DNA from: a virus
DNA length: 51,506 bases
Reading direction: 5' to 3' (one strand)
UHGV virus genome: UHGV-0335272
In this document: piece after piece, positions 30,545 through 47,717 of the stretch
Numbering within the stretch: the stretch's first letter is position 1
Layout of the letters: every line of letters begins with the position of its first letter
The notes under the pieces: generated by a model
The model's input: only the letters and a program-made list of their open reading frames with translations
The model's database searches: none
What the model was told of the DNA's origin: nothing
Program-made: the position numbers and the translations under genes

Positions 30545-30737
30545 TCCATCAGCGGCAACGTGTTTAGAACGAATAAAGACTTTGAATGCTGATAACCAGC
30601 GTTCAGTCAGGGTTAATCTCGGTGTACTTAAAGCGGCTCGTAGTGAAATCCTGGCCCAGGTTGCGATAAACGGAAAAGGCGTCATGACCGATATGGTGCT
30701 CCATGCGTTAGACCACGCGATCAAGGAGGGCCGGTAA
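30534..30737 (+). CDS. Hypothetical small protein
   Basis: 67-aa ORF overlapping previous stop. Confidence 0.4.
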   Translation: MKINPSAATCLERIKTLNADNQRSVRVNLGVLKAARSEILAQVAINGKGVMTDMVLHALDHAIKEGR

Positions 30738-30739
30738 TC

Positions 30740-30910
30740 ATGTGGGTACTTATTTTGTGGATGTTCACATCAGGTACTGAAGGCGAAGGCCTTGTCATAA
30801 CATCTCCGGAATTTACTACTGAGAGTGCCTGCAGGGCAGCATTCCAGGAAGTTAAACGCGTCAATGCCGGTGAAATTTATCTTCGCGGTGTATGCACACC
30901 AAAGGACTAA
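30740..30910 (+). CDS. Hypothetical small protein (56 aa)
   Basis: Manually translated ORF MWVLILWMFTSGTEGEG..., below ORF-track size cutoff; tight spacing to neighbours. Confidence 0.3.
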   Translation: MWVLILWMFTSGTEGEGLVITSPEFTTESACRAAFQEVKRVNAGEIYLRGVCTPKD

Positions 30911-30913
30911 ATC

Positions 30914-34970: not shown

Positions 34971-36434
34971 TTAACTATCGTTCAATGTGGGCTGCTGGCG
35001 ACCAAAAATAACCTCCATTCTGGCGCCGCCCAGCAGGCTTTCACTGGTTTCTATTTTCCCGTCGTACTGGTCGACAATCTCACGGGCGACGGCCAATCCT
35101 ACGCCCTGGCCAGGACGTAGCGTATCGGCGCGCTGACCGCGATCGAACACCACGTCACGCTTATTGCGCGGGATGCCCGGACCATCATCCTCAACGATAA
35201 TATGCAGTTCGGTTTCCGTCTGACGCGCAGACACTTCCACGAACTCCAGGCAGTATTTGCAGGCGTTATCCAGCAGGTTACCCATCACTTCCATGAAGTC
35301 ATTTTTTTCACCCACAAAGCTTATCTCTGGCGAGATATCGAGGCTGATGTTCACCCCTTTACGCTGATACACCTTGTTGAGGGCGGACGTGAGGTTATCC
35401 AGAAGCGGGGCTACCGGGTGCAGCTCGCGGCTCAGAAGCGCGCTGCCGGAACGCATGCTGGCGCGGTGCAGGTAATAGCCAATTTGCTGGGAAATACGGC
35501 TGATCTGCTCCAGCATCACCGGCTCGGCATCATCGACGCTCAGCTTCGAACTGCGCATTGAACGCAGGGTACTTTGCATGACGGCCAGCGGAGTTTTCAG
35601 GCTGTGGGTCAGGTCGGTAAGGGTGGTACGGTATTTATCGTAGCGTTCGCGTTCACTTTTAAGCAGGCGGTTGAGGTTACGCACCAGGCTGGTGAGCTCA
35701 CGGGTGGTTTCCGGGTTCAGCTTCTCGCGATGATGTTCTTCCAGCTCACGAACCTCTTTCGCCAGTGATTCAATGGGGCGCAAGCTCCACCACGCCGCCA
35801 CCCACAGCAGCGGGATCACCAGCAGGAGATTCGCAGCCAGAACGTAGATGAACCAGCTCCAGACCATATAAGAACGCTTCAGCTCGACCGGAATGGTGTC
35901 GATCACCACGATGGTCAGCTGCGGCATGTTCAGCGTCGCTGGATAGAGGTTAATCGCGACGGAGTGCGTCATCTCCGTCTCGGCGTTGTCGGCGCGGATC
36001 TCGTTCAGCTTTTGCTGCAGGGAGCGATCTTCATGGATCAGCGAGCTGGTGGTGTTGAGATCGGCTTCAATTTCGTGAAATCCGTTGGTTTTGAGCCATT
36101 CCGGACGAATGCTTTTGACCAGCCAGGGAATATCACGCTGCGCCCACAGTAATTTCCCCTTTTCGTTATAAATCAGGGCCAGCGTTGGACTCTGCTGGTT
36201 GAGGTTTTCCGGCATTTCGACGGTGATTTGGTTGTTTTCCCACTTCGCCAGGGTATAAAACAGATTGCTTTCGCCACGCAGCAGCCGAAAGGTGGTTTTA
36301 TCAAAGCTGACGCTGTAGCCCACCAGGGCGACCATGCCGTAGGAGAGCGACAGCACCAGCACGACGGCAGCCGTGGCCAGTAAGAAACGAACCCGCAGCG
36401 AGAGGGGCAGTATGTGGCGTAAAATCCCTCTCAT
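34971..36434 (-). CDS. phoQ: Sensor histidine kinase PhoQ
   Basis: 487 aa, strongly resembles E. coli PhoQ throughout. Confidence 0.95.
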
Positions 36435-37106
36435 TTAGCGTAATTCGAACAGGTAGCCCTGGCCACGGACGGTGGTAATCACATCCTGCGGATACTGCGC
36501 CTGAATTTTCTTACGCAAACGCCCCATCAGCACGTCAATGGTATGGCTCTCGCGCAGTTCAGCATCAGGGTAAAGCTGGAGCATTAAGGAATCTTTGCTC
36601 ACCACTTTGCCATTGTTACGGATCAGCGTTTCCATGATGGTGTATTCGAAGGCGGTGAGCTTAATCACTTCATCATTGATCGCTAATTCCCGGCGGGAGA
36701 GATCGACCTGGAATGGCGGGATGGAAATAACCTGTGAAGCCAGCCCGCTGTTGCGGCGTAACAGCGCCTGCATGCGCGCCGCCACCTCTTCAATATGAAA
36801 CGGCTTGGTGACGTAATCGTCTGCACCCGCGCTGAGCACTTCAACCTTATCCTGCCAGCCTTCACGGGCGGTCAGAACCAGAACCGGCAGGGAGACATCG
36901 TGGCTGCGCCAGCGGCGAATTAGCGACAGACCGTCTTCGTCAGGCAACCCTAAATCGACAATGGCGATATCCGGCAGGTGTTCATTGAGATAATAATCGG
37001 CTTCTTTTGCATCTTCAGCATCGTCCACCTGATGTCCCATCTCCTGAAGCTGAACCTTCAGGTGATGGCGTAGTAATGCGTTATCCTCAACAACCAGTAC
37101 GCGCAT
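36435..37106 (-). CDS. phoP: Response regulator PhoP
   Basis: [19 protein letters not shown]... matches E. coli PhoP; start taken at second ATG. Confidence 0.95.
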
Positions 37107-37179
37107 CATCTCTTCTCCCTAAAAAATTGGTATGAATAGTTTAACGCTGATTATGGAGTTTGGAACCAGCGCTATGAAA

Positions 37180-38469
37180 TTAAATGACTTTTTTCATGCT
37201 CCCTATGCCTTGGGGGCGTCCTGGGGGCAAAGCTGTCGGCATCTGATTGTTCAGCATGTTGACCTGATCCTGGTTCATATCGCCAATCCACTTCGAATAA
37301 ACCTCATACACCATACGCGCATCCTCATGGCCCATCTGGCTGGCGATAAAGGACGGGTTCGCGCCGGCCATAAGCGTCCAGCAGGCGTAAGTATGCCGGG
37401 ACTGATAAGGGTTTCTCTCACGAATACCTGAAAGTTTAGTTCCCTGTCGCCAGCCATACGAAATCGAATTTTTAGAAAAATAGCTCTCATTCACTGAAGA
37501 TTTCTTTTCCGGCGAAAAAACGAAACGCAGATTTTGTTGTTCGGTTTTGCCGATTTCGCGATGATGAAAAATAATCTGCTGGCGCGGGTTGTTGCCGGTG
37601 ATTTCGTACTGCTCCAGCAGCGCATCATGCGCGGGCTTGAGCAACGTGATCGTTCTGATTCCCGCATCTGTTTTCGGCGGCACAAATACCCGTTTGTTTG
37701 TCAGACTCCTGGACACGTGTATCTCACCTTTTTTCAAATCAATGTCATCCCACGCCAGGGCGCAAATTTCGCCGGGCCTCATTCCCGTATGCACGGCAAC
37801 GATGATGATCAAAGCCAGTTTGCGGGGAAGGGCTGCAATTAGCGCCTGGTACTCATGAAGTAGAAGCGGATCGGGGTCTGCCTTAGATAGCTTGAGCCTG
37901 GATACGCCCTCATAAGGAGCGTGTAATATAAACTGACTTCGATTAGCAAGCTTCAGCATTTCTGATAAAACAGCCATCTGTTTATTGACCGTTGAGGGCG
38001 CGCGCCCCTTTTTAACCAGGTTAGGCATAGAAGGGTTTAACACGCAGCCCGTCAGCAGCTCTTTGCGATAATGCAGTATGTCGGCGTGTTGAATATCAGC
38101 CAGGGGGGTATTTTCTCCCACTACACGCTTCAGGGTGTTAACTGCAGATGTGAGTGAATGCAGAGTAGCTCCTGACACCTCCAGTGCTTTTGTCTCGATG
38201 AAAAAATCGCTCAGCTCACTGAACGTCGCGATCCGCTTTGTTGATGAGAATTTTTTAAGGGCCTTTGACTCAGGGAAGCGCGCCGCATAGTCGAACTGGC
38301 CGAACTGGATCTCACTTACGATGACGGCGCGAAGGTTTCCCGCCTTCTTGATGTTGCTGCTGTTAACCACCCAGCCACGGAGAACTTCGCGGCAGCGAAT
38401 GCCGCGATAGGTAAACGTTATCCTGATTTTTCCGTTATGAAGTTCAACGCCAGTTGGAAAGTTCATCAT
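37180..38469 (-). CDS. Tyrosine integrase (phage integrase family)
   Basis: 429 aa; C-terminal catalytic region with RHTYACW ... [11 protein letters not shown] pattern; first gene at prophage boundary. Confidence 0.85.
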
Positions 38470-38693
38470 GCTTCCTGAATAAATCTATTAATCAGCGGAA
38501 AGTTGTACCAGACCAAAGCGCGCTTGCTTTCCCCACCGGGTACCGCGGGTACTCGCTTAAAATGAACTCCTTCAATCCAGCATCCGAGGCGATAAGCTTT
38601 TATTTGCCTGTCATCCAGCCCCGTTTTCTCAGTTAGCTTTCCCGCCACCATCCACTCTTCATCGAAAATGATTTGCGCCATGCTTAACTCCAT
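38466..38693 (-). CDS. Excisionase-like protein
   Basis: 75-aa ORF overlapping int start by 4 nt. Confidence 0.5.
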
Positions 38694-38742
38694 GACGCCG
38701 CCACGATACCGCAGCGGCAGATAGTATATTGATTGTCAAAAA

Positions 38743-38982
38743 TCACCTGCCGAGTCCAGGGAGGCACTGGAGGTGCCTGGCACCGGTCATTGCCGTTGCC
38801 ACATAACTACGGGGGCGGTTAACAACCTCGACCGTAATTTTTCTCCCTTGGATCTTGACGGTGTAAAACGTCTGTTTGTCGTTGCGGCCATGCTCGCCGT
38901 ATTTGTCGAGATGGCATTTTAGAGCGGCGGCACATGCAGGCCCGCCGATGCTGTCTCCCTTGCTTCGGTTAATCAGACGCAC
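38743..38982 (-). CDS. Hypothetical small protein
   Basis: 79-aa ORF in early-left operon. Confidence 0.4.
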   Translation of the reverse strand: MRLINRSKGDSIGGPACAAALKCHLDKYGEHGRNDKQTFYTVKIQGRKITVEVVNRPRSYVATAMTGARHLQCLPGLGR

Positions 38983-40873
38983 AGGAGCCTTCCTGATGGT
39001 TTATAACGCCGCGGGCAAGTCCGGCGGCCATAGCCGGTAATTCCTCATACTGGTTGCAAAAGGCCGGGTTGGAGCATAAGCCCTGCAGGGCAGCAATGGT
39101 CAGCTGTTGCAGGTAGGTAACAGGCGAAAGCGGCGCGTTTGTCACAGGTGCTGGATCCGGCTCGGTTTTATGCTTTGCAGTAACGGCTGGTGGATCGAGC
39201 ACGACAGATTTTGGTGGTGCCGGGCGGCGGTATTCAACGATCGCATCAAGGGCGATTTTCTGACGCACGCTGATATCGTCAGACCAGCTATCCAGCATGG
39301 TGGTTGCCACGTCGTGGATCTCCTCGTCGGAGAACTCAGGAGACAGGCAAAATTCTGTGGTGGTGATATCGGCCATTAGCAGTGGAATAACATCAGAAAC
39401 GAGCTGGCCGGTGCCTGCCACCACATCTTCTGCTTCTTCTTTCCCCATGATGTTGGTGCGTCCAGAAATAAGGTCATTAAGCGCATGCAAAATCGCAAAG
39501 TCGCGATTATTTGGTGCAGGTGGTACTTCCTGTTTTTCGACCTCATTTGAGGGGGAATTATTAATCAGTGCATCAACAGAGAAGACTCCGCCGCCCAGGT
39601 TCTCCACCCGTGGTTGGTCAATCGCTTGCTCTTCTGGTGCCGGGCTCTGAGTGAATGCCTCGTTGAGTTCATTGTTGAGTTGCGCAGCTTCGCCTGGGCA
39701 AACTGCTGGTGGCAGAGCTTCGCCCGGTACAGTCGATTCGGTTTCATCATTTTCTTTTTTCTCAACATTAGTGCGAGGTTTAGGGCGGCAGGCTATATCA
39801 ACCGTTTTCTGGTCAGGGTTCGCATGGTCACGTTCAACCAGCTCGCGATTAATGTATTCACGCAAGGCAACAGGATCCATCCAAATGTTCTCCGGGGCGG
39901 ATTTAATCAGGGCGATAATGGCCGCACGGGAATAATCCAGAATGCCTGGGGTGCTGCGCAGTTTTTTCCACCACGCTGTAAAACGGGTGTCCTGTTCTGC
40001 TTCGGCCATGGCTTTCGCTGGAATCATGTATTTATTCGGGATCCAGTAAATGTCGATCTCGTCGTACATACTCAGAATGGCAACAGCCACTTCGATACGC
40101 AGCGTAGAGAGGTTATGAACCAGATCCGGGCTGCGGTCTGTCTTGTTACCACCGCCCAGTGTGGAGCCGGTGTCTGTACGGTTTTCTTCTGAGTTAGTGC
40201 TGTCAGCCAGAGGTCGCTTATCAACCGGGGTATCGATCCATTTAGCGATCTGCTTTTTGATGTCCGGCCACTGTGCAGAGTCTTTTGTATTTTCTCGTAT
40301 CCATGCGAGCAGCTGCTCCTGCCGTTCCGGAGCCAGCGCCAGCGCGCGGGTCTCTTTCGCCAGTGCTTCTGCAAGCTCGCGGGCAAAGCTGGGTTCATCA
40401 TCATTCTTCAGATCGACGATCTGGCCGTACTGCGCTGTAGTGATTCCAGGGACCGGGCCGAACAGTGCCAGGCAAGCTGCACGGGATGCCACGTCGAGCT
40501 GCGCGACAGTTTTAATTTCTTCCAGTGCCTTGTTGTCGTCCCATTCCGTCTTTTCTTCAGATTCTGGCTGTGGTGCTGCAGCTGGTTCACCTGCATTCAC
40601 ATTCCAGATAGCAACGGTATCGAAAAATTCAGATGAGAAGACATCAAGCTCAGGGCACGGTAAACCTTCACGGTGTTCCCAGATCTTCACTTTGAAGAAA
40701 TCATCAATATGTTCCGGGTGTTCAGCTGCCAGCTTGCCGAAAATAACGGCTTCAGCGATGGCTTTTGTTGCCGCATTAACTGCTGTGGCAAGCGGTTTTA
40801 AATCGGGGTGTTTTTTCAATGCTTTATCTTTTGGGAAATAAGCACCACCAAAAACTTTTAATTCAACAGACAT
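38969..40873 (-). CDS. Large acidic protein of unknown function (early-left operon)
   Basis: 634 aa, no P-loop or recognisable catalytic motif by eye; Pro/Glu-rich linker segments. Confidence 0.6.
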   Translation of the reverse strand: MSVELKVFGGAYFPKDKALKKHPDLKPLATAVNAATKAIAEAVIFGKLAAEHPEHIDDFFKVKIWEHREGLPCPELDVFSSEFFDTVAIWNVNAGEPAAAPQPESEEKTEWDDNKALEEIKTVAQLDVASRAACLALFGPVPGITTAQYGQIVDLKNDDEPSFARELAEALAKETRALALAPERQEQLLAWIRENTKDSAQWPDIKKQIAKWIDTPVDKRPLADSTNSEENRTDTGSTLGGGNKTDRSPDLVHNLSTLRIEVAVAILSMYDEIDIYWIPNKYMIPAKAMAEAEQDTRFTAWWKKLRSTPGILDYSRAAIIALIKSAPENIWMDPVALREYINRELVERDHANPDQKTVDIACRPKPRTNVEKKENDETESTVPGEALPPAVCPGEAAQLNNELNEAFTQSPAPEEQAIDQPRVENLGGGVFSVDALINNSPSNEVEKQEVPPAPNNRDFAILHALNDLISGRTNIMGKEEAEDVVAGTGQLVSDVIPLLMADITTTEFCLSPEFSDEEIHDVATTMLDSWSDDISVRQKIALDAIVEYRRPAPPKSVVLDPPAVTAKHKTEPDPAPVTNAPLSPVTYLQQLTIAALQGLCSNPAFCNQYEELPAMAAGLARGVINHQEGSCASD

Positions 40874-40904
40874 AATTACCTCTATAATTTTAGGGGGATG
40901 ATAT

Positions 40905-41138
40905 TTAGCGATATGGTTTTCGAATAACGCACCTTAAATTTTTTAACGCGTTACGTCTTTCTCTTTTTTCATTGCATTGCTCACATAAATAAATCGTGCG
41001 CTTAAAGGGATATATATCTGTTTTCCTTTCATGCATTTCCGATTTTTTATATTCGTGGCAGCAAACAGCGCAATGACAAATGATGTCATCCATATCAGTT
41101 AAGTTGTTGGCGTTTGTGATCGTAATAAGACATGCCAC
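40905..41138 (-). CDS. Small Cys-rich zinc-finger-like protein
   Basis: CHCAVCC ... CEQC cysteine pattern. Confidence 0.4.
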   Translation of the reverse strand: MACLITITNANNLTDMDDIICHCAVCCHEYKKSEMHERKTDIYPFKRTIYLCEQCNEKRERRNALKNLRCVIRKPYR

Positions 41139-41367
41139 AAGCGTTCTGCGCTTCTGCGAAGTTCACAGACAGCAAGCTAATGTGCTCAACAGCACAAATC
41201 GGGCAATGAAATTCACCGAGCACGTAGCCACCGTCAAGCACAACGGTTACGGGGCCAGAAGATGGCAGATGAACAACGCCAGAAATGGCACCGTTAATAT
41301 TAAAAGTTGCAAGGTCTTTATTGACGATAGCCAGGTTCATTTCTACGGTTGTAATAGTTGCTTTCAT
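41095..41367 (-). CDS. Hypothetical small protein
   Basis: 90-aa ORF; overlaps the next ORF by about 44 nt, so one of the two starts is probably wrong. Confidence 0.35.
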   Translation of the reverse strand: MKATITTVEMNLAIVNKDLATFNINGAISGVVHLPSSGPVTVVLDGGYVLGEFHCPICAVEHISLLSVNFAEAQNACGMSYYDHKRQQLN

Positions 41368-41434
41368 TTTACAGTCCTTAATTTAAGGTGTGAAAATCCC
41401 AGCCAGTTAAGGCATCGGTTTTAGGTTGGTCGAA

Positions 41435-41620
41435 TTAAATAACTTTTAGATTATTGCGCCATTCCTGATAAGGCTGGCGATGCACAACAAAATTTCTGTA
41501 TTTCCGTAATACTTTCCAGGCGGCATGGCATCCCGCAACATCGCGAAGAAATACTGAAGTTACGAGTTTTCCTTGTGCCCAGGCAATTTGTTGTTCCGGT
41601 GTTAATTGTGTCTTATCCAT
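41435..41620 (-). CDS. Hypothetical small protein
   Basis: ORF trimmed to MDKTQLTPEQQIAWAQGK... with upstream GGAG. Confidence 0.4.
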   Translation of the reverse strand: MDKTQLTPEQQIAWAQGKLVTSVFLRDVAGCHAAWKVLRKYRNFVVHRQPYQEWRNNLKVI

Positions 41621-42271
41621 ATATGAACACTCCACTATAAAACCTGATTTAAAAAGGGCGGTGTATACGTGGACCACGGGAAACGCATATACCACCAAGA
41701 ACTAAACACAGCCTCATGTTGCGATTACCCACAACTGGAAGCGCACTCAATCAATTTTGACTTAACGACAAAGCTCAAATTGGTGAGGCGAGTGCGCTCT
41801 CAATTGTGGGCGATTCATCTGCCCTGGTCCGGCGGCGCCACCTCGCCAGAGCAGATGTAAAGGGCAGTTACGCTGCCATGCGGCTTATTGGTCTGTGCAG
41901 GTATTTCAAGTCCTGCATCGTGGGGTTTGCTCTCCGCCCCAGGTTCTCCCCGCTACGCTTTAGCGCGCAACCTGAGAAAACCGCCTTCAAGCCTTTGGCT
42001 TACGCCACATTCATGAAACTGCCTGGACGAACTCGGAAAAGCTCAGTGCTTCTTCACCTTCCGCCAGACTGTTGAAATATTCTTCGTATGCTTTTTCCAT
42101 CTCGAACCCCTGTTGCTGCTTTGCTCGGCTTATCACCCTTATCGCCGGGTAGGCGGAACGTTTACTGATTACTGCGTGTTTTGTTGGTCTAAGTTTATAA
42201 AAAAATAAACCAATATGTAAAGTTAATGATAAACAAAAAGGCGTGAAAAATTGGATGTGGTTGAATTTGGA

Positions 42272-42297
42272 GAAAAAAAAGACCGCAACAGGCGGTC
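42272..42297 (-). terminator. Intrinsic terminator downstream of repressor gene
   Basis: Minus-strand GACCGC-CTGTT-GCGGTC hairpin followed by TTTTTTTT, 10 nt after the repressor stop. Confidence 0.6.
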
Positions 42298-42307
42298 TTT
42301 AGGGGAG

Positions 42308-42703
42308 TTAGTCTATTTCGAGGTCTTTGAGCATCTGAAGGATTTCTTGTTTGCTCTTGCCTTTAAGCCTTGCCTTGAGCTCATTGTCTATGGAGTTAAC
42401 TTGGGCCCTGAGGTTTACCATGTGCTGCTCTTTTTCCCATTCAGCAAGGCTGTCGAAAAGGTCTAGAAGTTCTTCATGGCGCGCGTCAAATGGACGAGGG
42501 GATCTTATCTCTTCACCCATAGGTTCTTCATCAAGATAACCAGGAGCCATGCCGTAATCTCGTTCAATACGGCGCGCAGCTCTCTCGCCGAACGACGCTT
42601 TGCCGTTGATCAGCTGTGAAAGGTAGCTCTTCTCTTTCTCCGGCAGGGTTCTGCTGGAAAACCATGCCGCTAGGCGCTTACGCCTGATTTCTTTTGTGTC
42701 CAT
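42308..42703 (-). CDS. Prophage repressor (HTH, CI-like, no peptidase domain)
   Basis: 131 aa; HTH-like segment EKSYLSQLINGKASFGERAARRIERDYGM; divergent from cro-like gene. Confidence 0.65.
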   Translation of the reverse strand: MDTKEIRRKRLAAWFSSRTLPEKEKSYLSQLINGKASFGERAARRIERDYGMAPGYLDEEPMGEEIRSPRPFDARHEELLDLFDSLAEWEKEQHMVNLRAQVNSIDNELKARLKGKSKQEILQMLKDLEID

Positions 42704-42743
42704 GCAGTCATTTTGATTAGTAATTTCTAAACAAGCAAAAACT

Positions 42744-42772
42744 TGACATTAATGTTTAGTGGTTTATAAACT
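42744..42772 (+). promoter_or_regulatory. Candidate early rightward promoter with overlapping palindromes
   Basis: TTGACA then 15 to 17 bp then TATAAA/TAAACT; GTTTATAAAC palindrome over the -10; CTAAAC ... GTTTAG inverted repeat. Confidence 0.4.
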
Positions 42773-42797
42773 TGCAACTCAACACACAGGAGCAATT

Positions 42798-43055
42798 ATG
42801 CAACTCAATGACTTTTTGAAAGCCGGTGGACCAAAGATCCGCAAGGCGCTGGAGCAACACCTTGGGATATCGAAATCTTACCTCTCCCAACTTGCAACGG
42901 GGCGAGCAGCTATTTCGCCGAGTCGATGCATCGTTATCGAAACCTTTACCGATGGAAAGGTTTCTCGTTCTGACATGCGGCCAAGCGATTGGGCTGAAAT
43001 TTGGCCTGATTACAAGCCAAAAAATAACACAACAGCTCAGGAGGATACTGACTGA
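42798..43055 (+). CDS. Cro-like HTH regulator
   Basis: ORF trimmed to MQLNDFLKAGGPKIRKALEQHLGISKSYLSQLATGR... with GGAG RBS. Confidence 0.6.
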   Translation: MQLNDFLKAGGPKIRKALEQHLGISKSYLSQLATGRAAISPSRCIVIETFTDGKVSRSDMRPSDWAEIWPDYKPKNNTTAQEDTD

Positions 43056-43507
43056 TGGAAATCAAAAAACTGGCATGTGAGCTGGAGTCCTGGGCGCAGG
43101 AAAAGGGCTGGAAGACAGTCACGCAGCTGATAACCCCGCATCACTTTGGCGATCTGCTTCAGCCATTGGATAACGTGACGGACCCTGACGAGTACGCGCG
43201 GCGCTTGCACAACAACAAGCAGATTATTCAGCGTGCATTCCGCAACGATACACCTAACTACCTGAAACAGGCTGAAGCCCTGAGCTATGCCATCCGCACC
43301 GCCATTGATAACGAGCTAGAGCAGAAAGACTGCATGCTCTACCGGGCGGCAAGGGTTAACAAAGAGTGTATCGAAGCCACCAATGCAGTCTTCACTGGCA
43401 AACCGCAACCGGTAATCCGCCGCGAGACTCTGGAAGCAATCGACGCGCTGGCGCAGCTGGTCGGCGTCAAAGTGAAGCTGGTTTCGACTTGTTCAAACGT
43501 AGCCTAG
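43055..43507 (+). CDS. Hypothetical regulatory protein (CII/YdaT-like position)
   Basis: 150-aa ORF directly after cro-like gene. Confidence 0.35.
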   Translation: MEIKKLACELESWAQEKGWKTVTQLITPHHFGDLLQPLDNVTDPDEYARRLHNNKQIIQRAFRNDTPNYLKQAEALSYAIRTAIDNELEQKDCMLYRAARVNKECIEATNAVFTGKPQPVIRRETLEAIDALAQLVGVKVKLVSTCSNVA

Positions 43508-43529
43508 TTCAGTTGTATCGAGGTGTTCT

Positions 43530-44447
43530 ATGAGCATGGAACTGATGGTTCAGGCGATGAAGGTCAAGGTAGGAAACCCGCTTCGTAAGCTGGTTCTGCT
43601 TAAGCTGGCCGATAACGCAAGTGACCAGGGCGAATGCTGGCCGAGTTATCAGCATATCGCTGATCAGTGTGAGATCAGCCGTCGTTCCGTCATGAATCAT
43701 GTTGCCGCGCTTTGCGAGTCTGGTCTGATGCGAAAAGAGACCAGATCGGGGCCGAAAGGCAATGGCAGCAATTTCTACCGACTAACCCTGAGCGGTGCAA
43801 ATACCAGTGCAAGGGTAGTGCAGGAGATTCACCAGAATGGTGAAGCAAATTCACCAGGGGCTGGTGCAGGAAATTCACCAGATGGTGCAGCACGTTCACC
43901 AGGGGATAGTGAAGGAGATTCACCCAGAATCAGTCACTCTTCTGAACCAGTCAAAGAACCAGAAAATACTTCTTGTCCGGAGGCTTCGCCGTCGGACGGA
44001 AAATTGACAAAAACCGAATTTTTAAAGCGCCACCCAGAAGCGGTGGTCTACAGCCCTGCAAAACGCCAGTGGGGCAGTCAGGAAGATTTGACCTGTGCGC
44101 AATGGATTTGGAAGCGCGTGCTGAAACTCTACGAGGAGGCCGCAACCTTTGACGGCGAGATCGTTCGTCCGAGAGAGCCGAACTGGACGGCCTGGGCGAA
44201 CGAAGTTCGTCTGATGCGCACCCTTGATGGCCGTAGCCACAAGCAAATTTGTGAAATGTTCAAGCGCGTCCAGAGCGATACGTTCTGGGTTCGCCAGGTC
44301 AAATGCCCGGCCAAACTGCGCGAAAAATGGGATGACCTGATTATCCGCCTGTCGGCGCCGGGCACAGGGCATTACCAGGCCGGTGGACGGGATATCAATC
44401 AGATCTCCCGTCCCGATAACACCGTTCCGCCAGGATTCAGGGGGTAA
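43530..44447 (+). CDS. Replication initiation protein (O-like, N-terminal HTH)
   Basis: N-terminal LRKLVLLKLADNASDQGECWPSYQHIADQCEISRRSVMNHVAALCESGLM; upstream of DnaC-like gene. Confidence 0.6.
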   Translation: MSMELMVQAMKVKVGNPLRKLVLLKLADNASDQGECWPSYQHIADQCEISRRSVMNHVAALCESGLMRKETRSGPKGNGSNFYRLTLSGANTSARVVQEIHQNGEANSPGAGAGNSPDGAARSPGDSEGDSPRISHSSEPVKEPENTSCPEASPSDGKLTKTEFLKRHPEAVVYSPAKRQWGSQEDLTCAQWIWKRVLKLYEEAATFDGEIVRPREPNWTAWANEVRLMRTLDGRSHKQICEMFKRVQSDTFWVRQVKCPAKLREKWDDLIIRLSAPGTGHYQAGGRDINQISRPDNTVPPGFRG

Positions 44448-44449
44448 AC

Positions 44450-45190
44450 ATGCAAAACGCAGGTTCCATTCTCGATCGCCTTCGCCGTGTCATTCCGCCG
44501 GGCGTAGAACCCAAATTTAAGAGCGCTGCAGAGCTGATGGCCTGGCAGCGGGAAGAAGGGCAAAAGCGCGCAGCTGAGATTGACAAGATCAACCAGCAGG
44601 CGCGGGCAGAGAAAATTTTCGGGCGATCCGGGATCCAGAACCTGCACCGCAGCTGCAGCTTCGCAAATTACAATGTGGAGGGCGACGGCCAGCGGCATGC
44701 GCTGAGTATGGCAAAGAGCTACGCGCAAAATTTTGGTACCGGCTTTGCCAGCTTCGTTTTCACCGGAAAGCCTGGTACCGGGAAAAACCACCTCTCAGCG
44801 GCGATCGGAAATTATCTGCTGAAACAGGGCCGAACGGTTCTGATTGTGACGGTGCCTGATCTGACCCTGCGCGCCCGTGCCTGCTATGACGAAGGTCGTT
44901 CTGAAGCCGCGCTGCTGGATGACCTCTGCAAAGTGGATCTGCTGGTGCTCGACGAAGTCGGCATTCAGCGCGACAGCCGCGGCGAGAAAGTTTTATTGAA
45001 CCAGATTATAGATCGCCGGCTGGCCGCTATGCGCCCGGTTGGCGTACTGACCAACCTGAATTACGACGTGCTTGTAGAGACCCTGGGGGCAAGGGTTATC
45101 GATCGCCTGCGCATGGATAACGGCATTTGGGTGAACTTTGACTGGGAGAGCTATCGCGGAAACGTTAGCCACCTGAGACCTGTTAAGTGA
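44450..45190 (+). CDS. DnaC-like helicase loader (IstB-like ATPase)
   Basis: Walker A GKPGTGKNHL, Walker B LLVLDEVG. Confidence 0.8.
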   Translation: MQNAGSILDRLRRVIPPGVEPKFKSAAELMAWQREEGQKRAAEIDKINQQARAEKIFGRSGIQNLHRSCSFANYNVEGDGQRHALSMAKSYAQNFGTGFASFVFTGKPGTGKNHLSAAIGNYLLKQGRTVLIVTVPDLTLRARACYDEGRSEAALLDDLCKVDLLVLDEVGIQRDSRGEKVLLNQIIDRRLAAMRPVGVLTNLNYDVLVETLGARVIDRLRMDNGIWVNFDWESYRGNVSHLRPVK

Positions 45191-45207
45191 ATTTTGAGGT
45201 GAAAATT

Positions 45208-45882
45208 ATGGAAACCGTATTGGATGCACTGAAAGCCATGAAAAAAGCAACATATCGCGAGGTTGCTGCCCGTCTGGATATCGAGCCCATTGAAGCGCTG
45301 AACATGCTGCGCGAGCAGAAAGAACAAGGGTTATGTGATTTTTACGATGGCGCATGGTCAATCGGTACAGCTAAAGAGCAGGCCAGGCAGCCGATCAAAC
45401 CTCAGGCAGCGGAGCCAGCGAATCAGGCTCCGCGCCTGAAAGGTGATGAACCAGCACCGGTTGATGTTGTGGCCATCCGCCAGTTGCTTGGAAAGAGCGG
45501 CTCTATGACCACCGCTGCGCTGGCTGCAGCTGTAAATCGTAATGCCCGCGGCATGGTCTCTGTAATGCTGTCTTTTGAGCGGCAGGGCGTGGTTATCAAA
45601 AACGGCGAGGGGAAGGGCGTGACATGGTCTCTGCCTGGAGCTGGTGAGGCCGCAGGCGTTACAGCCGAAGCTGCACAGCCAGAAAAAACAACTGCAGAAA
45701 TTATTGAGACCATCCCGGCATTCGCCTCTCGCCCTGATGACCTGATTATTCCGTCATCCCGTTATATCTCCGGTGAAATCCGCCGGACAAAAGCGAAGCT
45801 GTCAAACCTGCAGCGTCTTCAGGGCGCCGTTCGGGAGCTACGCCGCCATAAGCATCTGCTGGAGGGGCTGGGGAATGACTAA
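45208..45882 (+). CDS. Hypothetical protein
   Basis: ORF trimmed to METVLDALKAMKK... Confidence 0.45.
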   Translation: METVLDALKAMKKATYREVAARLDIEPIEALNMLREQKEQGLCDFYDGAWSIGTAKEQARQPIKPQAAEPANQAPRLKGDEPAPVDVVAIRQLLGKSGSMTTAALAAAVNRNARGMVSVMLSFERQGVVIKNGEGKGVTWSLPGAGEAAGVTAEAAQPEKTTAEIIETIPAFASRPDDLIIPSSRYISGEIRRTKAKLSNLQRLQGAVRELRRHKHLLEGLGND

Positions 45883-46105
45883 TTTACCGAAATGCCCTCA
45901 ATGCGGCATGGCCCCTTCACTGAGGGTTCGCAGCCGGGGAATGAACTGGGGTTCAGCAGAGGTCCGCTGTTCGAACGGTTGCCCTGGCATCCGAGCGGGA
46001 TTTTCGTTCCCGCCTGATGGTGAGGCAGCGGCCCGGCAGTTGCTTCAGGAAAAATGGAAAGAGCTTGTGGGAGGAATCAACGATGCCACGACCAAAAACT
46101 CATGA
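45875..46105 (+). CDS. Small zinc-ribbon protein (Lar-like restriction alleviation candidate)
   Basis: MTNLPKCPQCGMAPS...CSNGC cysteine pairs; overlaps neighbours. Confidence 0.35.
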   Translation: MTNLPKCPQCGMAPSLRVRSRGMNWGSAEVRCSNGCPGIRAGFSFPPDGEAAARQLLQEKWKELVGGINDATTKNS

Positions 46106-46349
46106 AGAGCGCACGGTGATGATTAACCGGATTATCGAACTGGTGAAAGAGCAGGGCCGTATCACGACGAAGGACGTCGTCGCGATGTTTAACCTGCACC
46201 GAACCACGGCAGAGAAGTACATCCGGATTGCCGTGCAACGTGGAGAGCTTATCCGTTACGGTCGCTGCGGTATTTTCCGTGACCAACGTGCAATTATCGA
46301 CTTTGACCTTAGCCGCTTTTCACAGCATAGAGTGGGTATGCAACCTTAA
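46083..46349 (+). CDS. Hypothetical HTH-like protein
   Basis: ORF trimmed to MPRPKTHEERTVMINRIIELVKEQGRITTKDV... Confidence 0.4.
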   Translation: MPRPKTHEERTVMINRIIELVKEQGRITTKDVVAMFNLHRTTAEKYIRIAVQRGELIRYGRCGIFRDQRAIIDFDLSRFSQHRVGMQP

Positions 46350-46656
46350 GTAAGACTTTCACCGCAAAAGGGCACATATCATTCTTAATTCAATGAAAGC
46401 GCGAACCCAATGGATGATTATCCAGGTCGATATGAACAGGCAACAACCTCTGGCTGGATAACTCCTGGTAGAGCTAGAATGACGATGCATTTATCACTGC
46501 TGTTTAATACAGATTAAAACAATGATGCTAAAATCTTGGTCTACATCAAAGATCTGTGTAACTGACTGATATTATTGAGTTGGTGTGATTTTGTTGTGGC
46601 TTATGACAAAATTTGATTGATCTTTTTTGTGGTTGTGACTAGAGGTCTTGTCAATT

Positions 46657-46697
46657 GGATTCATCGATCGATGAAAAAAGAATTGATCGATGAATCC
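46657..46697. promoter_or_regulatory. 13-bp perfect inverted repeat with GATC sites overlapping a candidate promoter
   Basis: GGATTCATCGATC - 15 bp - GATCGATGAATCC; TTGATC then 17 bp then TAAACT downstream; TTGTGGNTNTGAC direct repeats upstream. Confidence 0.45.
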
Positions 46698-46741
46698 TTT
46701 GATTCTAAACTAACAGTATTGAAGTAATCAGAGATTCAGTC

Positions 46742-47263
46742 ATGGCTAACAATTATTCAACTCAAGCTTTCTTCGATTTCCTGTACGAACTGCCTTCATT
46801 GGGACTCATCAATGAAGCAACTGCACGTAACCTGAAGAATTCAGCGTTGCTATTGCTCTCTGTTACCAAAATTCATAGTGATGATGATGTACGAGATCTA
46901 GACGTTGAAGACTTGATCGAGAAGTATATTGCGACCCAGTCCACGAAGCCTGGTGAATCTTCCATTCAAAGCTATCAAAGCCGATTTAAAAGCGCCGTTA
47001 ACAAGTTCGAGGAGTATGTGCGAGTGGGTACTATTGTAAACCAGTCAGATACTGACGGAAGCCAAGACGGATTTGATACTGCGGATCAGAATGCGGAGAA
47101 GATTAAACTGGGCAAGAGAGAGAAGGTGCAAGCCTTCAATTTGCCGATTGTAGTTCGCCCGGAGACAGGAACGATGATTACTGTCCAAGGCTTACCAACT
47201 GATCTCACTGCGGAAGATGCTGAGCGTATTCTTTCGGTATTAAAAGCGTATGTGCGTTCATGA
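46742..47263 (+). CDS. Hypothetical protein, AT-rich gene with own promoter and operator
   Basis: 173-aa ORF, clearly lower GC than flanking genes, preceded by a 390-bp AT-rich noncoding region. Confidence 0.55.
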   Translation: MANNYSTQAFFDFLYELPSLGLINEATARNLKNSALLLLSVTKIHSDDDVRDLDVEDLIEKYIATQSTKPGESSIQSYQSRFKSAVNKFEEYVRVGTIVNQSDTDGSQDGFDTADQNAEKIKLGKREKVQAFNLPIVVRPETGTMITVQGLPTDLTAEDAERILSVLKAYVRS

Positions 47264-47415
47264 AAAGAATTTGGGCCCAGCCTTTGGAGAGGAAGGGCCC
47301 GGATTGGGGATGTTGGAGCACCCGCAATCAGTACTGCGTACACAACAGTACAGTAGCGGATCCCCATATTTTAATCAAGTTTTAGGGAGGTGCTCCCCTG
47401 AGGCGAGGTTTATGT

Positions 47416-47589
47416 ATGGCTTTAAAAGACATCGCTACCAAACCGTTACCAGCCGGTTTTCGCTGGGTAAAATGCCGTTTCCGTAAAGCTCGTGCAAAGG
47501 CAGGGACTCCTGATTCTGAACGTAAGATTCTTGATGCTCATGCCTATGGTTACAAATGCTGGTCCTTTCCAGTGCGCACTAAGCACTAA
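47416..47589 (+). CDS. Possible small basic protein (57 aa)
   Basis: Manually found ORF MALKDIATKPLPAGFRWVKCRFRK...; GAGG upstream; ends 5 nt before terminator. Confidence 0.25.
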   Translation: MALKDIATKPLPAGFRWVKCRFRKARAKAGTPDSERKILDAHAYGYKCWSFPVRTKH

Positions 47590-47593
47590 GTTT

Positions 47594-47617
47594 TAAACCC
47601 GCTTCGGCGGGTTTTTT
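47594..47617 (+). terminator. Rho-independent terminator
   Basis: AAACCCGC-TTCG-GCGGGTTTTTTT. Confidence 0.65.
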
Positions 47618-47687
47618 TATGCCTAATGCCAAATATCCTTTAACATTTCGTGCTCTTAATCCATTGATCATTTTTCTGTATGGCGTC

Positions 47688-47703
47688 ACTGTATAAATAT
47701 ACA
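47688..47703. promoter_or_regulatory. LexA (SOS) box upstream of UmuD'-like gene
   Basis: CTGTATAAATATACAG matches CTGT-N8-ACAG; about 15 bp upstream of the gene. Confidence 0.55.
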
Positions 47704-47717
47704 GTTAATCATCAGGG

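What the first reader, a model, noticed from the sequence alone, without database searches (positions are those of the whole stretch)
38969..40873. 634-aa acidic protein of unknown function dominating the early-left operon
Where lambdoid phages usually carry recombination (exo/bet or recET) and kil functions, this prophage has a single large ORF with no nucleotide-binding or nuclease motif I can recognise, Pro/Glu-rich linkers and several Cys near the C-terminus. No N-like antiterminator or exo/bet genes are present. Large early-left accessory genes are often anti-host or defence functions.
Basis: inference. Interest (0 to 1): 0.55.

Follow-up and report, generated by a model that had tools for sequence, protein, structure and literature searches.

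The report
Nuclease-less RecE relative in a prophage
The 634-aa gene is a real, conserved prophage protein that keeps the mysterious non-catalytic front part of the RecE recombination exonuclease but has two small helical modules where the nuclease should be, so the database name "exonuclease VIII" is wrong and its function is still unknown.

Summary
The ORF (38969-40873, minus strand, 634 aa, pI 4.6) is real and under purifying selection (dN/dS about 0.15). It is not an orphan. Residues 232-399 are 40% identical to E. coli RecE 238-406 (E 2e-28), and residues 6-212 match Qin YdfE (Pfam YdfE_N/YdfE_C).

It is not an exonuclease VIII, despite that NCBI name. It has no PD-(D/E)XK or DnaQ domain, it scores 113 bits against a 1269-bit NCBIfam cut-off, and no recT, bet, erf, exo or gam lies nearby.

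A confident AF2 model shows five small folded domains joined by acidic, proline-rich disordered linkers. The last two domains (modules A and B) sit where relatives carry a PD-(D/E)XK nuclease (RecE) or a DnaQ-like nuclease (mEp460/YdfE type).

The protein matches the "RecE-2" nuclease-less proteins mentioned, with unknown role, by Zheng et al. 2025.

About 90 related prophages show the same layout: a small Cys-rich protein, then RecE-2, a small ORF, xis and int. They have no strand-annealing protein and show strong one-strand Chi enrichment.

My best reading is a non-catalytic scaffold or adaptor acting on recombination or replication intermediates. That mechanism is inferred, not shown. I found no evidence for a defence or anti-host role.

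The parts
38969..40873 (-). Complete RecE-2-type gene (634 aa plus stop)
   Evidence: ORF listing. Full-length match to phrog_26058. More than 200 homologous clusters. dN/dS 0.15-0.26.
40571..40873 (-). Domain D1, aa 1-101, alpha/beta fold (Pfam YdfE_N type)
   Evidence: AF2 pLDDT about 79-92, with strands at 6-12, 28-34, 63-66, 88-91 and 96-99. Homologues 85-96% identical carry precomputed PF27430 YdfE_N. BLASTP to E. coli YdfE gives E 1e-10 over aa 6-212. dN/dS 0.03-0.11 against close orthologues.
40208..40522 (-). Domain D2, aa 118-222, helical (Pfam YdfE_C type)
   Evidence: AF2 pLDDT 83-93. PF27432 YdfE_C on homologues. Covered by the YdfE alignment.
39770..40189 (-). Domain D3, aa 229-368, helical 'RecE core' shared with true RecE proteins
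   Evidence: 40% identity to E. coli RecE 238-406, E 2e-28. phrog_607 'exonuclease VIII' E 1.6e-48. NF007259 positions 243-406. AF2 pLDDT 78-96.
39515..39769 (-). Disordered acidic linker, aa 369-453, containing conserved short motifs (ENLGGGVFSVDAL at about aa 424-436; SNEVEKQEV at about aa 442-450)
   Evidence: pLDDT below 50. Net charge -13. dN/dS 0.3-0.9, i.e. relaxed. Even so, Q420, E424, L426, G429 and S432 are at least 90% conserved across 76 sequences of 43-91% identity. The motifs recur in divergent members.
39215..39514 (-). Module A, aa 454-553, helical bundle, family-specific
   Evidence: AF2 pLDDT 86-94. Found only in 500-730-aa proteins that also end in module B; 52 clusters in 1.84 billion representatives. 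dN/dS 0.10-0.17. Net charge -12.
38972..39121 (-). Module B, aa 585-634, helical hairpin (consensus LTYxQQLTIAALQGLCANPAY....DDLPxMAxxLAxxVI). It occupies the position of the nuclease domain in RecE.
   Evidence: The motif always lies 39-46 residues from the C-terminus. Q, L, AA, G and NP positions are invariant in 28 divergent sequences. P0170 has a RecE-type N-terminal region (Pfam Exonuc_VIII; by my reading of its sequence close to E. coli RecE over ~600 aa) that ends in module B instead of the nuclease. dN/dS 0.07-0.13.
40905..41138 (-). Small Cys-rich (CxC..CC ... CxxC) basic-tailed protein immediately upstream. The likely true start is the ATG at 41093 (62 aa).
   Evidence: ORF listing. 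A CxxC...CxxC/H mini-ORF lies directly upstream of the gene in 83 of 88 related loci, with 59 distinct sequences. The alignment has invariant Cys columns. Homology to Rac YdaE is not significant.
41095..41367 (-). 90-aa ORF (phrog_2434), homologue of the gene directly upstream of Gifsy-2 recE
   Evidence: phrog_2434 E 7.9e-40. 40% identity, E 2e-16, to Gifsy-2 STM1010.
38743..38982 (-). DUF4060 79-aa ORF overlapping the 3' end of the gene by 14 nt (possible translational coupling)
   Evidence: PF13269 E 3e-27. The GTG start is preceded by AGGAAGG inside the 634-aa ORF. A homologue is present downstream in 62 of 94 related loci, so it is not universal.
37180..38693 (-). Integrase and excisionase marking the left prophage end next to phoP
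   Evidence: PF00589 and Arm-DNA-bind_2. phrog_539 excisionase. phoP and phoQ ORFs lie at 34971-37109.
39186..39193 (+). Chi site (GCTGGTGG) inside the gene, on the strand opposite to its coding strand
   Evidence: Part of a one-strand Chi enrichment.
39705..39712 (+). Second Chi site inside the gene, same orientation

Best explanation
**Identity (shown).** The gene encodes a nuclease-less member of the RecE/YdfE family of lambdoid early-left proteins. It is of the kind called "RecE-2" by Zheng et al. 2025.
- It keeps the three N-terminal non-catalytic domains that RecE-type and YdfE-type exonucleases share: YdfE_N, YdfE_C and the RecE core.
- At the position where relatives carry a PD-(D/E)XK 5'-3' exonuclease (RecE) or a DnaQ-like 3'-5' exonuclease (mEp460/CP-933P/YdfE type), it carries two small helical modules, A and B.
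- The modules are joined by disordered acidic linkers that contain conserved short motifs.
- It is a functional, selected protein, not a decaying remnant and not an exonuclease.

**Mode of action (inferred).**
- It most likely acts without catalysis, as a multivalent protein-protein scaffold or adaptor expressed from pL early in lytic growth.
- The N-terminal RecE-like platform would supply whatever targeting or tethering RecE's unexplained N-terminal 600 residues supply.
- Modules A and B would replace the built-in nuclease with an oligomerisation and/or docking head for a partner supplied in trans.
- The host prophages have no annealing protein, nuclease or RecBCD inhibitor and are strongly enriched in correctly oriented Chi sites. 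I therefore favour coupling to host RecBCD/RecA-dependent recombination that makes packageable concatemers.
- The conserved basic zinc-ribbon-like mini-protein upstream is a possible DNA-binding partner.

**My confidence by step.** Identity about 0.9. Non-catalytic adaptor mode about 0.55. The specific link to the host Chi/RecBCD pathway about 0.2. The overall confidence value refers to identity plus the non-catalytic adaptor mode.
For: **Homology.**
- RecE core: 40% identity, E 2e-28.
- phrog_607 E 1.6e-48, and phrog_2489/2082 'exonuclease' families over aa 6-420.
- YdfE_N and YdfE_C on homologues 85-96% identical, and BLASTP to YdfE E 1e-10.

**No nuclease.**
- No Pfam match. RecE itself gives PF12684 at residues 615-850.
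- NF007259 scores 113 bits against a 1269-bit cut-off.
- AF2 model has mean pLDDT 75.9. All domains after aa 101 are helical.

**Head swapping.**
- The mEp460 823-aa relative carries the Rv2179c-like DnaQ exonuclease at residues 642-813.
- P0170 has a RecE-type N-terminal region (Pfam Exonuc_VIII; by eye close to E. coli RecE) followed by module B.
- Module B is always the extreme C-terminus.

**Selection.** dN/dS is 0.03-0.17 in the folded modules and 0.3-0.9 in the linkers.

**Context.**
- Ten genome loci and 80 viral loci share the layout small ORFs, RecE-2, small ORF, xis, int.
- tblastn with RecT, Exo, Bet, Gam, Erf, Abc1, Abc2 and Arf finds nothing in the window or 91 loci.
- Chi counts are 236 on one strand against 6 on the other in 820 kb of related loci. 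Control octamers average 9-14. In the window's prophage part the counts are 5 against 0.
- This matches the "no Rec module, high Chi" class (PMC12315714, section 16).
- A Cys-rich mini-ORF lies upstream in 83 of 88 loci.

**Literature.**
- The RecE N-terminal region is of unknown function but improves linear-linear recombination (PMC11611040, section 2.3).
- RecE-2 proteins lack a nuclease and their role is unknown (PMC12315714, section 12).
Against: - No partner, oligomeric state or activity has been tested. The adaptor model rests on architecture and context alone.
- No folded domain has an informative structural neighbour.
- All modules are acidic and none looks DNA-binding, so any DNA association would have to be indirect.
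- In one relative (P0170), module B co-occurs with a complete gam-bet-exo module. That includes a RecBCD inhibitor. It does not fit a RecBCD-specific role for module B.
- The Chi enrichment may simply reflect the absence of a Rec module and have nothing to do with this protein.
- The neighbours are not universal. DUF4060 is in 62 of 94 loci. BLAST-detectable homologues of the window's Cys-rich ORF are in 64 of 94 loci.
- The related loci are redundant and come mostly from the Enterobacter/Citrobacter group.
Confidence: 0.55

Rival explanations
1. It is an anti-host or anti-defence factor. The large acidic early protein would act as a DNA mimic or inhibitor of a host DNA enzyme or defence system, for example RecBCD or restriction. 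This is.
For: - The protein is strongly acidic: pI 4.64, net charge -42, with acidic disordered linkers.
- It sits in the early-left operon among accessory genes.
- It has no catalytic motif.
- Its function is unknown in the literature (PMC12315714, section 12).
Against: - It has no similarity to Gam, Abc2, Abc1 or Ral.
- It has no PADLOC match.
- True RecE's N-terminal 600 residues are just as acidic, with net charge -53. Acidity is therefore a family trait, not a mimicry signature.
- Phages that inhibit RecBCD mostly lack Chi (PMC12315714). These prophages instead carry many Chi sites in one orientation.
- The structure is a string of small globular domains, not an elongated DNA-like surface.
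Confidence: 0.15
2. It is an evolutionary remnant. A RecE gene lost its nuclease domain and recT by deletion and now persists without function.
For: - recT and the nuclease domain are absent although the gene sits exactly at the recE position.
- Related truncated genes exist: E. coli ydfE is an IS2-truncated pseudogene, and one viral locus (L068) carries a frameshifted copy.
Against: - dN/dS is 0.15-0.26 overall and 0.07-0.17 in the C-terminal modules.
- Length is conserved at about 600-660 aa in most of 89 loci.
- The C-terminal modules are not out-of-frame RecE sequence. They form a conserved family of their own: 52 clusters, 33-62% identity among the full-length members.
- They fold confidently in the AF2 model.
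- The same head is combined with different N-terminal domain types.
Confidence: 0.06
3. It is a prophage-encoded defence or superinfection-exclusion protein expressed for the benefit of the lysogen.
For: - Early-left regions often harbour exclusion genes such as sieB and rexAB (established knowledge).
- The function is unknown.
Against: - The gene is co-oriented with and downstream of the repressor-controlled leftward operon, with no promoter-like site of its own directly upstream.
- It has no PADLOC hit.
- It has no effector-like domain such as a nuclease, NTPase, TIR or transmembrane segment.
Confidence: 0.04
4. It is a genuine exodeoxyribonuclease VIII, as NCBI and JGI annotate it, with a divergent and unrecognised nuclease domain.
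For: - The sources name it 'exodeoxyribonuclease VIII'.
- It is homologous to the RecE central region.
Against: - The NCBIfam equivalog score is 113 bits against a 1269-bit cut-off, and only the central 160 residues match.
- It has no PF12684 or PF16473 match.
- tblastn with the RecE nuclease domain and the DnaQ domain finds nothing.
- The C-terminal 180 residues are confidently predicted all-helical, with no beta-sheet. A PD-(D/E)XK or DnaQ core needs a beta-sheet.
- It has no structural match to any nuclease.
Confidence: 0.02

Closest known systems
RecE (exonuclease VIII) of the E. coli Rac prophage and Gifsy-type RecE
   Same: - It occupies the same position in the lambdoid early-left operon, just upstream of xis and int.
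- It shares the conserved central region: RecE 238-406, 40% identity.
- It has the same acidic 'beads on a string' build.
- It has similar upstream companions. ORF90 matches Gifsy-2 STM1010 at E 2e-16, and a small Cys-rich protein sits at the YdaE position.
   Different: - It has no PD-(D/E)XK nuclease domain and no adjacent recT.
- Its N-terminal domain is YdfE-type, not PF06630. A profile comparison is inconclusive at 23% probability.
- It has the extra modules A and B.
- It lacks the RGEFVxGISDP motif and the CxxC..CxxC stretch that I see by eye in E. coli RecE (my reading of the sequences).
"RecE-2" proteins of lambdoid phages (Zheng, Casjens, Davidson, Amundsen, Smith, Genome Res 2025, PMC12315714)
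   Same: [quoted passage not shown] All three features hold here.
   Different: - The paper gives no sequences in the text held here, and its supplements were unavailable. Identity with their set therefore cannot be checked.
- The paper assigns no function and does not describe the domain architecture, the A and B modules or the link to Chi-rich genomes.
YdfE of the E. coli Qin prophage and its intact relatives (mEp460 / CP-933P 823-aa 'exonuclease')
   Same: - It shares the YdfE_N and YdfE_C N-terminal domains (phrog_2082 and phrog_5943).
- It has the same operon position directly before xis and int, with no annealing protein.
   Different: - Intact YdfE-type proteins end in a DnaQ-like Rv2179c-type 3'-5' exonuclease. 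This protein ends in modules A and B.
- K-12 ydfE itself is an IS2-truncated pseudogene.
Lambda Gam and P22 Abc2 (anti-RecBCD proteins of the same operon)
   Same: They are early-left operon proteins that act by protein-protein interaction rather than catalysis. Gam is acidic.
   Different: - There is no sequence similarity.
- The size and architecture are very different.
- The host prophages are Chi-rich, the opposite of phages that inhibit RecBCD (PMC12315714).

Membership tests
RecE / exodeoxyribonuclease VIII (NCBIfam NF007259 equivalog) | Whole-protein score above the curated equivalog cut-off | tested here: not met
   The score is 112.8 bits against a cut-off of 1269. Only residues 226-386 match model positions 243-406. 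E. coli RecE scores 1830 bits.
RecE / exodeoxyribonuclease VIII | C-terminal PD-(D/E)XK (RecB-like) nuclease domain (PF12684; RecE 564/606-866) | tested here: not met
RecE / exodeoxyribonuclease VIII | Conserved central non-catalytic region (RecE about 238-365) | tested here: met
   BLASTP 40% identity, E 2e-28. phrog_607 E 1.6e-48.
RecE / exodeoxyribonuclease VIII | N-terminal Exonuc_VIII domain (PF06630) | tested here: inconclusive
   No HMM hit. hhalign of the D1 profile against RecE-type N-termini gives 23% probability, E 9e-4, in a sensible register. Other module-B proteins (P0155, P0170) do carry PF06630.
RecE / exodeoxyribonuclease VIII | Adjacent gene for the partner annealing protein RecT | tested here: not met
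   The downstream genes are DUF4060, xis and int. There is no tblastn hit to RecT, Bet or Erf in the window or in 91 related loci.
RecE / exodeoxyribonuclease VIII | 5'-3' dsDNA exonuclease activity | not testable with these tools
   This requires a biochemical assay.
RecE-2 (nuclease-less RecE relatives, PMC12315714) | Distant homology to Rac or Gifsy RecE | tested here: met
RecE-2 (nuclease-less RecE relatives, PMC12315714) | No nuclease domain by structure prediction | tested here: met
RecE-2 (nuclease-less RecE relatives, PMC12315714) | Encoded in the early left operon of a lambdoid (pro)phage | tested here: met
   The order is int, xis, this gene, then a cI-like repressor, cro, cII-like gene, O-like and DnaC-like replication genes, RusA and Q.
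YdfE family (Pfam PF27430 YdfE_N + PF27432 YdfE_C) | The two N-terminal YdfE domains | tested here: met
   Both families are precomputed on all listed homologues of 85-96% identity. Direct BLASTP to K-12 YdfE gives E 1e-10 over aa 6-212. The local Pfam copy lacks these models, so the HMMs were not run on this exact sequence.
YdfE family, intact form (mEp460 / CP-933P exonuclease) | C-terminal DnaQ-like Rv2179c-type exonuclease (PF16473) | tested here: not met
   The domain is present in mEp460 at 642-813. It is absent here (tblastn).
Anti-RecBCD proteins (Gam, Abc2) | Sequence similarity to Gam (PF06064) or Abc2 | tested here: not met
Known anti-phage defence systems (PADLOC-DB) | Match to any defence-system protein model | tested here: not met
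   No family at E<=0.01 for this protein or its five neighbours.

The most novel reading that the evidence does not exclude
The N-terminal region shared by RecE, YdfE-type exonucleases and this protein is an autonomous 'delivery platform' with interchangeable heads: a PD-(D/E)XK nuclease, a DnaQ nuclease, or the non-catalytic A+B head. In the A+B version the head oligomerises and docks a host enzyme such as RecBCD. A Chi-rich phage with no recombination genes of its own would then steer host recombination onto its DNA. The conserved basic zinc-ribbon mini-protein would serve as the DNA-binding subunit. If correct, this protein is a natural separation-of-function allele that reveals what RecE's unexplained 600 N-terminal residues do.
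Probability: 0.15. Interest if true: 0.75.

Novelty: new member of a known kind. Interest (0 to 1): 0.45.

Why it matters
- **An old open question becomes testable.** RecE's N-terminal ~600 residues are still described as "of unknown function" in a 2023 review (PMC11611040), although they boost linear-linear recombination used in direct cloning. This family keeps that region under purifying selection with no nuclease and no RecT. The region must therefore do something on its own. A deletion or pull-down experiment in an Enterobacter prophage could show what.
- **Modular evolution.** One scaffold is combined with three alternative heads.
- **A widespread annotation error.** Hundreds of 'exodeoxyribonuclease VIII' entries lack any nuclease.
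- **A candidate factor in a newly described phage class.** These are the lambdoid phages that have no Rec module but are rich in Chi sites.
- **Limits.** The protein family itself is already in the databases and has been noted in the literature. The function remains inferred.

Tried and rejected
1. **First AF2 run.** An alignment of sequences 85-96% identical gave a useless model with pLDDT 39.7. I rebuilt the alignment with 43-91% identical sequences found through a second homologue search.
3. **Profile search with module B.** A search against PDB sequences returned only designed helical repeats.
4. **NAR 2026 'miniRecE E121-T222'.** I considered it as evidence for a nuclease-independent N-terminal activity. 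Residues 121 and 222 of full-length RecE are P and L. The numbering fits an M+RecE587-866 construct, so the fragment lies in the nuclease domain and is irrelevant here.
5. **Homology of the small neighbouring ORFs to Rac genes.** Comparisons to RcbA, RacC and YdaE gave no BLAST similarity. A profile comparison of the Zn-ribbon ORFs with YdaE-like proteins was not significant: probability 2%.
6. **Hidden annealing protein upstream.** The ORFs of 120 aa or more on the same strand, from about 8 kb upstream of the gene, in 89 loci are repressors, antisense artefacts or rare unknowns.
7. **Module B in other phyla.**
   - The Oscillospiraceae hits are chance matches in a membrane protein.
   - The Spirulina-type hits are 65-aa stand-alone proteins without a conserved neighbourhood: one lies next to a ParA-like gene and one does not.
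8. **E. coli search.** A DNA search of complete E. coli genomes with modules A+B found nothing.
9. **First literature search.** Word-start matching of 'RecE' hit 'receptor', so the search was wasted.
10. **YdfE and YdaE literature.** No functional studies were found.
Full report
**1. The observation**

The window carries an ATG-to-TAA ORF of 634 codons at 38969..40873 on the minus strand. An AGAGG ribosome-binding sequence lies 7 nt before the ATG.

The gene is in the leftward early operon of a lambdoid prophage inserted beside phoP and phoQ. The gene order is:
- phoQ and phoP, 34971-37109
- integrase, 37180-38469
- excisionase, 38466-38693
- a 79-aa DUF4060 ORF, 38743-38982, overlapping the big ORF by 14 nt
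- the 634-aa ORF
- a Cys-rich 62/77-aa ORF, 40905-41138
- a 90-aa ORF, 41095-41367
- an 87-aa ORF
- a cI-like repressor, 42308-42703
- then rightward: cro, cII-like, O-like and DnaC-like genes, a nin region with RusA, and Q

The protein is acidic, with pI 4.64 and net charge -42. It has Pro/Asp/Glu-rich linkers and three Cys in its last 35 residues. No other early-left ORF exceeds 90 aa. tblastn with RecT, lambda Exo/Bet/Gam/N and P22 Erf/Abc1/Abc2/Arf finds nothing in the window.

**2. It is a real, selected gene**

A first homologue search returned more than 120 clusters of 630-640 aa at 85-96% identity. Almost all are from Enterobacter species. A second search seeded with a distant member extended the family down to about 43% identity, in Yokenella, Leclercia and others.

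Pairwise dN/dS against orthologues from Enterobacter, Citrobacter, Lelliottia and Buttiauxella is 0.15-0.26 overall. It is 0.03-0.17 in the folded modules and 0.3-0.9 in the linkers. That pattern is expected for a functional multi-domain protein with flexible spacers.

The window most likely comes from a member of the Enterobacter cloacae complex. This is an inference.

**3. What it is related to**

- Pfam (local copy) and PDB sequence searches find nothing.
- PHROGs places the whole protein in phrog_26058, of unknown function.
- PHROGs also matches residues 227-411 to the 'exonuclease VIII' family phrog_607 (E 1.6e-48).
- Residues 6-420 match other 'exonuclease' families.
- Direct BLASTP shows residues 232-399 are 40% identical to E. 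coli K-12 RecE residues 238-406 (E 2e-28). That stretch lies in RecE's non-catalytic N-terminal part.
- The precomputed Pfam labels on the close homologues are PF27430 YdfE_N and PF27432 YdfE_C.
- Residues 6-212 align with the Qin prophage pseudogene product YdfE (E 1e-10).

**4. It is not an exonuclease**

- E. coli RecE has PF06630 at residues 2-178 and the PD-(D/E)XK domain PF12684 at 615-850. The 634-aa protein has neither.
- It scores 113 bits against the NCBIfam exonuclease VIII equivalog, whose cut-off is 1269 bits.
- tblastn against phage genomes never extends past residue 447.
- With a diverse 76-sequence alignment, AlphaFold2 gives a confident model with mean pLDDT 75.9. pTM is 0.30 because the domains are independent.

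The model has these parts:

| Part | Residues | Predicted structure |
|---|---|---|
| D1 | 1-101 | alpha/beta |
| D2 | 118-222 | helical |
| D3, the RecE core | 229-368 | helical |
| Linker | 369-453 | disordered |
| Module A | 454-553 | helical bundle |
| Linker | 554-584 | disordered |
| Module B | 585-629 | helical hairpin |

Nothing after residue 101 contains a beta-sheet. A PD-(D/E)XK or DnaQ nuclease core needs one.

The name 'exodeoxyribonuclease VIII' attached to these proteins by NCBI and JGI is therefore an over-extension from the shared central region.

**5. The C-terminal head and the modular family**

An exhaustive HMMER search of 1.84 billion representative proteins with residues 401-634 found only 52 clusters. 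In the proteins long enough to tell (about 500-730 aa) the match lies at the extreme C-terminus.

The module B motif has the consensus LTYxQQLTIAALQGLCANPAY....DDLPxMAxxLAxxVI. It always sits 39-46 residues from the end.

The member sequences show free shuffling of a small set of modules:
- The N-domain is either YdfE-type or RecE PF06630-type (P0155, P0170).
- The RecE core may be present or absent.
- An RGEFVxGISDP motif, also present in E. coli RecE, is optional.
- Module A is optional.
- Module B is always present.

Two comparisons are especially telling.
- P0170 has a RecE-type N-terminal region (Pfam Exonuc_VIII). By my reading of its sequence it is close to E. coli RecE over about 600 residues. 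It ends in module B in place of the nuclease domain.
- The intact YdfE-type protein of phage mEp460 (823 aa) ends in a DnaQ-like Rv2179c-type 3'-5' exonuclease at residues 642-813.

One N-terminal platform therefore carries three alternative heads: a PD-(D/E)XK nuclease, a DnaQ nuclease, or the non-catalytic A+B.

The 'disordered' linker also holds short motifs that are conserved across the family (ENLGGGVFSVDAL and SNEVEKxEV). This is typical of hub or adaptor proteins.

**6. Genomic context in relatives**

I collected 18 genome loci, 10 of them Enterobacteriaceae, and 80 IMG/VR loci carrying a module-B gene.

- Gene length is 594-663 aa in most of them.
- The layout is constant: small ORFs, RecE-2, one or two small ORFs, xis, int, prophage end.
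- The ORFs of 120 aa or more on the same strand upstream are repressors, antisense artefacts or rare unknowns.
- tblastn with RecT, the RecE nuclease domain, lambda Exo/Bet/Gam, P22 Erf/Abc1/Abc2/Arf and the mEp460 DnaQ domain gives zero hits in the window plus 91 loci. The RecE N-terminal region hits 87 of them.
- Divergent members with a PF06630 N-domain (P0144, P0155, P0159) show the same pattern: Kil or KilR, a small ORF, RecE-2, a small ORF, xis and int, with no recombination genes.
- The single exception is P0170, which is followed by gam, bet and exo.

Two companions are notable.
- In 83 of 88 loci the ORF ending just upstream is a 55-80-aa protein with a CxxC...CxxC/H pattern and a basic tail. 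There are 59 distinct sequences.
  - Canonical RecE phages (Rac, Gifsy-2, Klebsiella phage 5) carry the zinc-binding YdaE-like protein at a similar place.
  - Profile comparison does not establish homology between the two sets.
- The window's 90-aa ORF is a clear homologue (E 2e-16) of the gene directly upstream of Gifsy-2 recE.

RecE-2 thus keeps RecE's upstream neighbourhood and lacks only the nuclease and recT.

DUF4060 downstream is common but not universal, in 62 of 94 loci.

**7. Chi sites**

The prophage part of the window (14.3 kb) has five Chi octamers, all on the plus strand, which is opposite to the gene. Two of them lie inside the gene. The 37-kb host part has one.

In the 80 viral loci (820 kb, redundant) there are 236 Chi sites on the strand opposite to RecE-2 and 6 on the same strand. 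Sixty same-composition control octamers average 9-14 per strand.

This matches the class described by Zheng et al. 2025. Lambdoid phages without a Rec module and without a RecBCD inhibitor accumulate Chi in one orientation and profit from host RecBCD (PMC12315714, abstract and section 16).

[quoted passage not shown] The present protein fits that description. I could not verify set membership because the supplements are not held.

**8. How it most likely works**

*Shown:*
- It is a functional, non-nuclease member of the RecE/YdfE family.
- It is built of small acidic domains and conserved linear motifs.
- It has a family-specific helical head at the place of the nuclease.
- It is encoded in prophages that lack their own annealing protein, nuclease or RecBCD inhibitor and are Chi-rich.

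*Inferred:*
- It acts as a multivalent scaffold or adaptor rather than as an enzyme.
- The N-terminal platform would do whatever it does in RecE. That region's function is unknown, but it is required in cis for efficient linear-linear recombination (PMC11611040, section 2.3, citing Fu et al. 2012).
- Module B is a 40-residue amphipathic hairpin with an invariant small-residue face (AAxxG). It is a plausible oligomerisation element that replaces the tetramerising nuclease domain.
- Module A and the linear motifs are candidate docking sites for a partner supplied in trans.
- Given the Chi signature, a host recombination enzyme is the most attractive partner. The co-occurrence of module B with Gam in P0170 cautions against naming RecBCD.
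- The basic Cys-rich mini-protein could provide DNA binding, which the acidic scaffold lacks.

None of these steps is tested.

**9. Rivals**

- *Anti-host or DNA-mimic inhibitor.* This is possible because the protein is acidic and early. However, acidity is shared with RecE's own N-terminus. There is no similarity to known inhibitors, and Chi enrichment argues against RecBCD inhibition.
- *Decaying remnant.* This is contradicted by selection and by conservation of the head.
- *Lysogen defence.* There are no supporting features.
- *Cryptic nuclease.* This is contradicted by every sequence and structure test.

**10. Novelty and score**

The family is in the public databases under a misleading name. 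It has Pfam and PHROG entries, and its class has been noted in a 2025 paper. It is therefore a new member of a known, functionally uncharacterised kind.

This analysis adds:
- the domain map
- the three-head modularity
- the constancy of the context: no annealing protein, a Cys-rich partner ORF and one-strand Chi enrichment
- evidence of selection

The value lies in offering a natural separation-of-function version of RecE's unexplained N-terminal region. I score interest at 0.45.

Noticed in passing
window 37180-51506 (Chi at 39186, 39705, 48571, 49089, 50008, all + strand); also loci L025-L104: Chi octamers are strongly enriched and all lie on one strand in this prophage arm. Across 80 related viral loci the counts are 236 against 6, while control octamers average 9-14. 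The 37-kb host part of the window has a single Chi. This fits the 'no Rec module, high Chi' lambdoid class of Zheng et al. 2025.
   Followed up: partly
window 40905-41138 (-); upstream ORFs in L005-L013, L025-L104, L109: A 55-80-aa protein with a CxxC...CxxC/H pattern and a basic tail lies immediately upstream of the RecE-2 gene in 83 of 88 loci, even though its sequence diverges beyond BLAST detection. Canonical RecE phages have the zinc-binding YdaE-like protein at a similar place. Homology between the two sets was not demonstrable.
   Followed up: partly
L023:3860-6331 (phage mEp460) and L004:5079-5999 (E. coli K-12 ydfE): The intact YdfE-type 823-aa 'exonuclease' carries a DnaQ-like Rv2179c-type 3'-5' exonuclease domain at its C-terminus. 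It is followed directly by xis and int with no annealing protein. K-12 ydfE is the IS2-truncated N-terminal third of such a gene.
   Followed up: partly
L108:6001-9819 (contig carrying P0170): This is a hybrid arrangement. A RecE-type N-terminal region (Pfam Exonuc_VIII) ends in module B and is followed by a lambda-type gam-bet-exo module. It looks like a recombination junction inside a RecE linker.
   Followed up: no
L014:25-399, L016:1525-1731, L017:4583-4780: Stand-alone 65-68-aa proteins in Spirulina-like cyanobacterial MAGs match the whole of module B (FRQQLIIAAVQGLCANP...DLAExAVAIAEAVI). One sits after a ParA-like ATPase gene and another does not. Their function is unknown.
   Followed up: partly
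window 36435-38469; L005, L006, L007, L010: The prophage is integrated directly beside phoP. The integrase stop lies about 70 bp from the phoP start. The same int-phoP-phoQ junction occurs in Enterobacter, Citrobacter and Lelliottia genomes. Other family members use an ompW-proximal site (L002, L003).
   Followed up: no
window 38743-38982 (-) and 38969-38982: The DUF4060 ORF starts at a GTG inside the last 14 nt of the 634-aa ORF, behind an AGGAAGG sequence. This suggests translational coupling. The same 14-nt overlap is seen in L002.
   Followed up: partly
homologues P0001-P0120, P0173-P0278: Most database copies are named 'exodeoxyribonuclease VIII' or 'exonuclease family protein' by NCBI and JGI, although they lack any nuclease domain. 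The name seems to be propagated from the shared central region.
   Followed up: yes
L068:6285-7411: One IMG/VR prophage carries a copy of the gene split by a frameshift into 154-aa and 242-aa pieces. It is an occasional pseudogenised copy.
   Followed up: no
L039:4596-5450 and L051:4767-5474: A few related prophages carry an extra 235-284-aa early-left protein with repeated H(x)EALEI(D/N) motifs. It matches no PHROG family.
   Followed up: no
window 22001-25000 and 30001-31000: Pockets of low G+C (0.42-0.47) lie within otherwise 0.57-0.60 G+C host sequence. They may be islands and were not examined.
   Followed up: no
window 47718-51309: The nin region encodes a UmuD-like protein, an HNH-related small protein, a 495-aa DNA methyltransferase, a RusA-type resolvase and a Q-like antiterminator. 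RusA is the only recognisable recombination enzyme in the part of the prophage covered by the window.
   Followed up: partly
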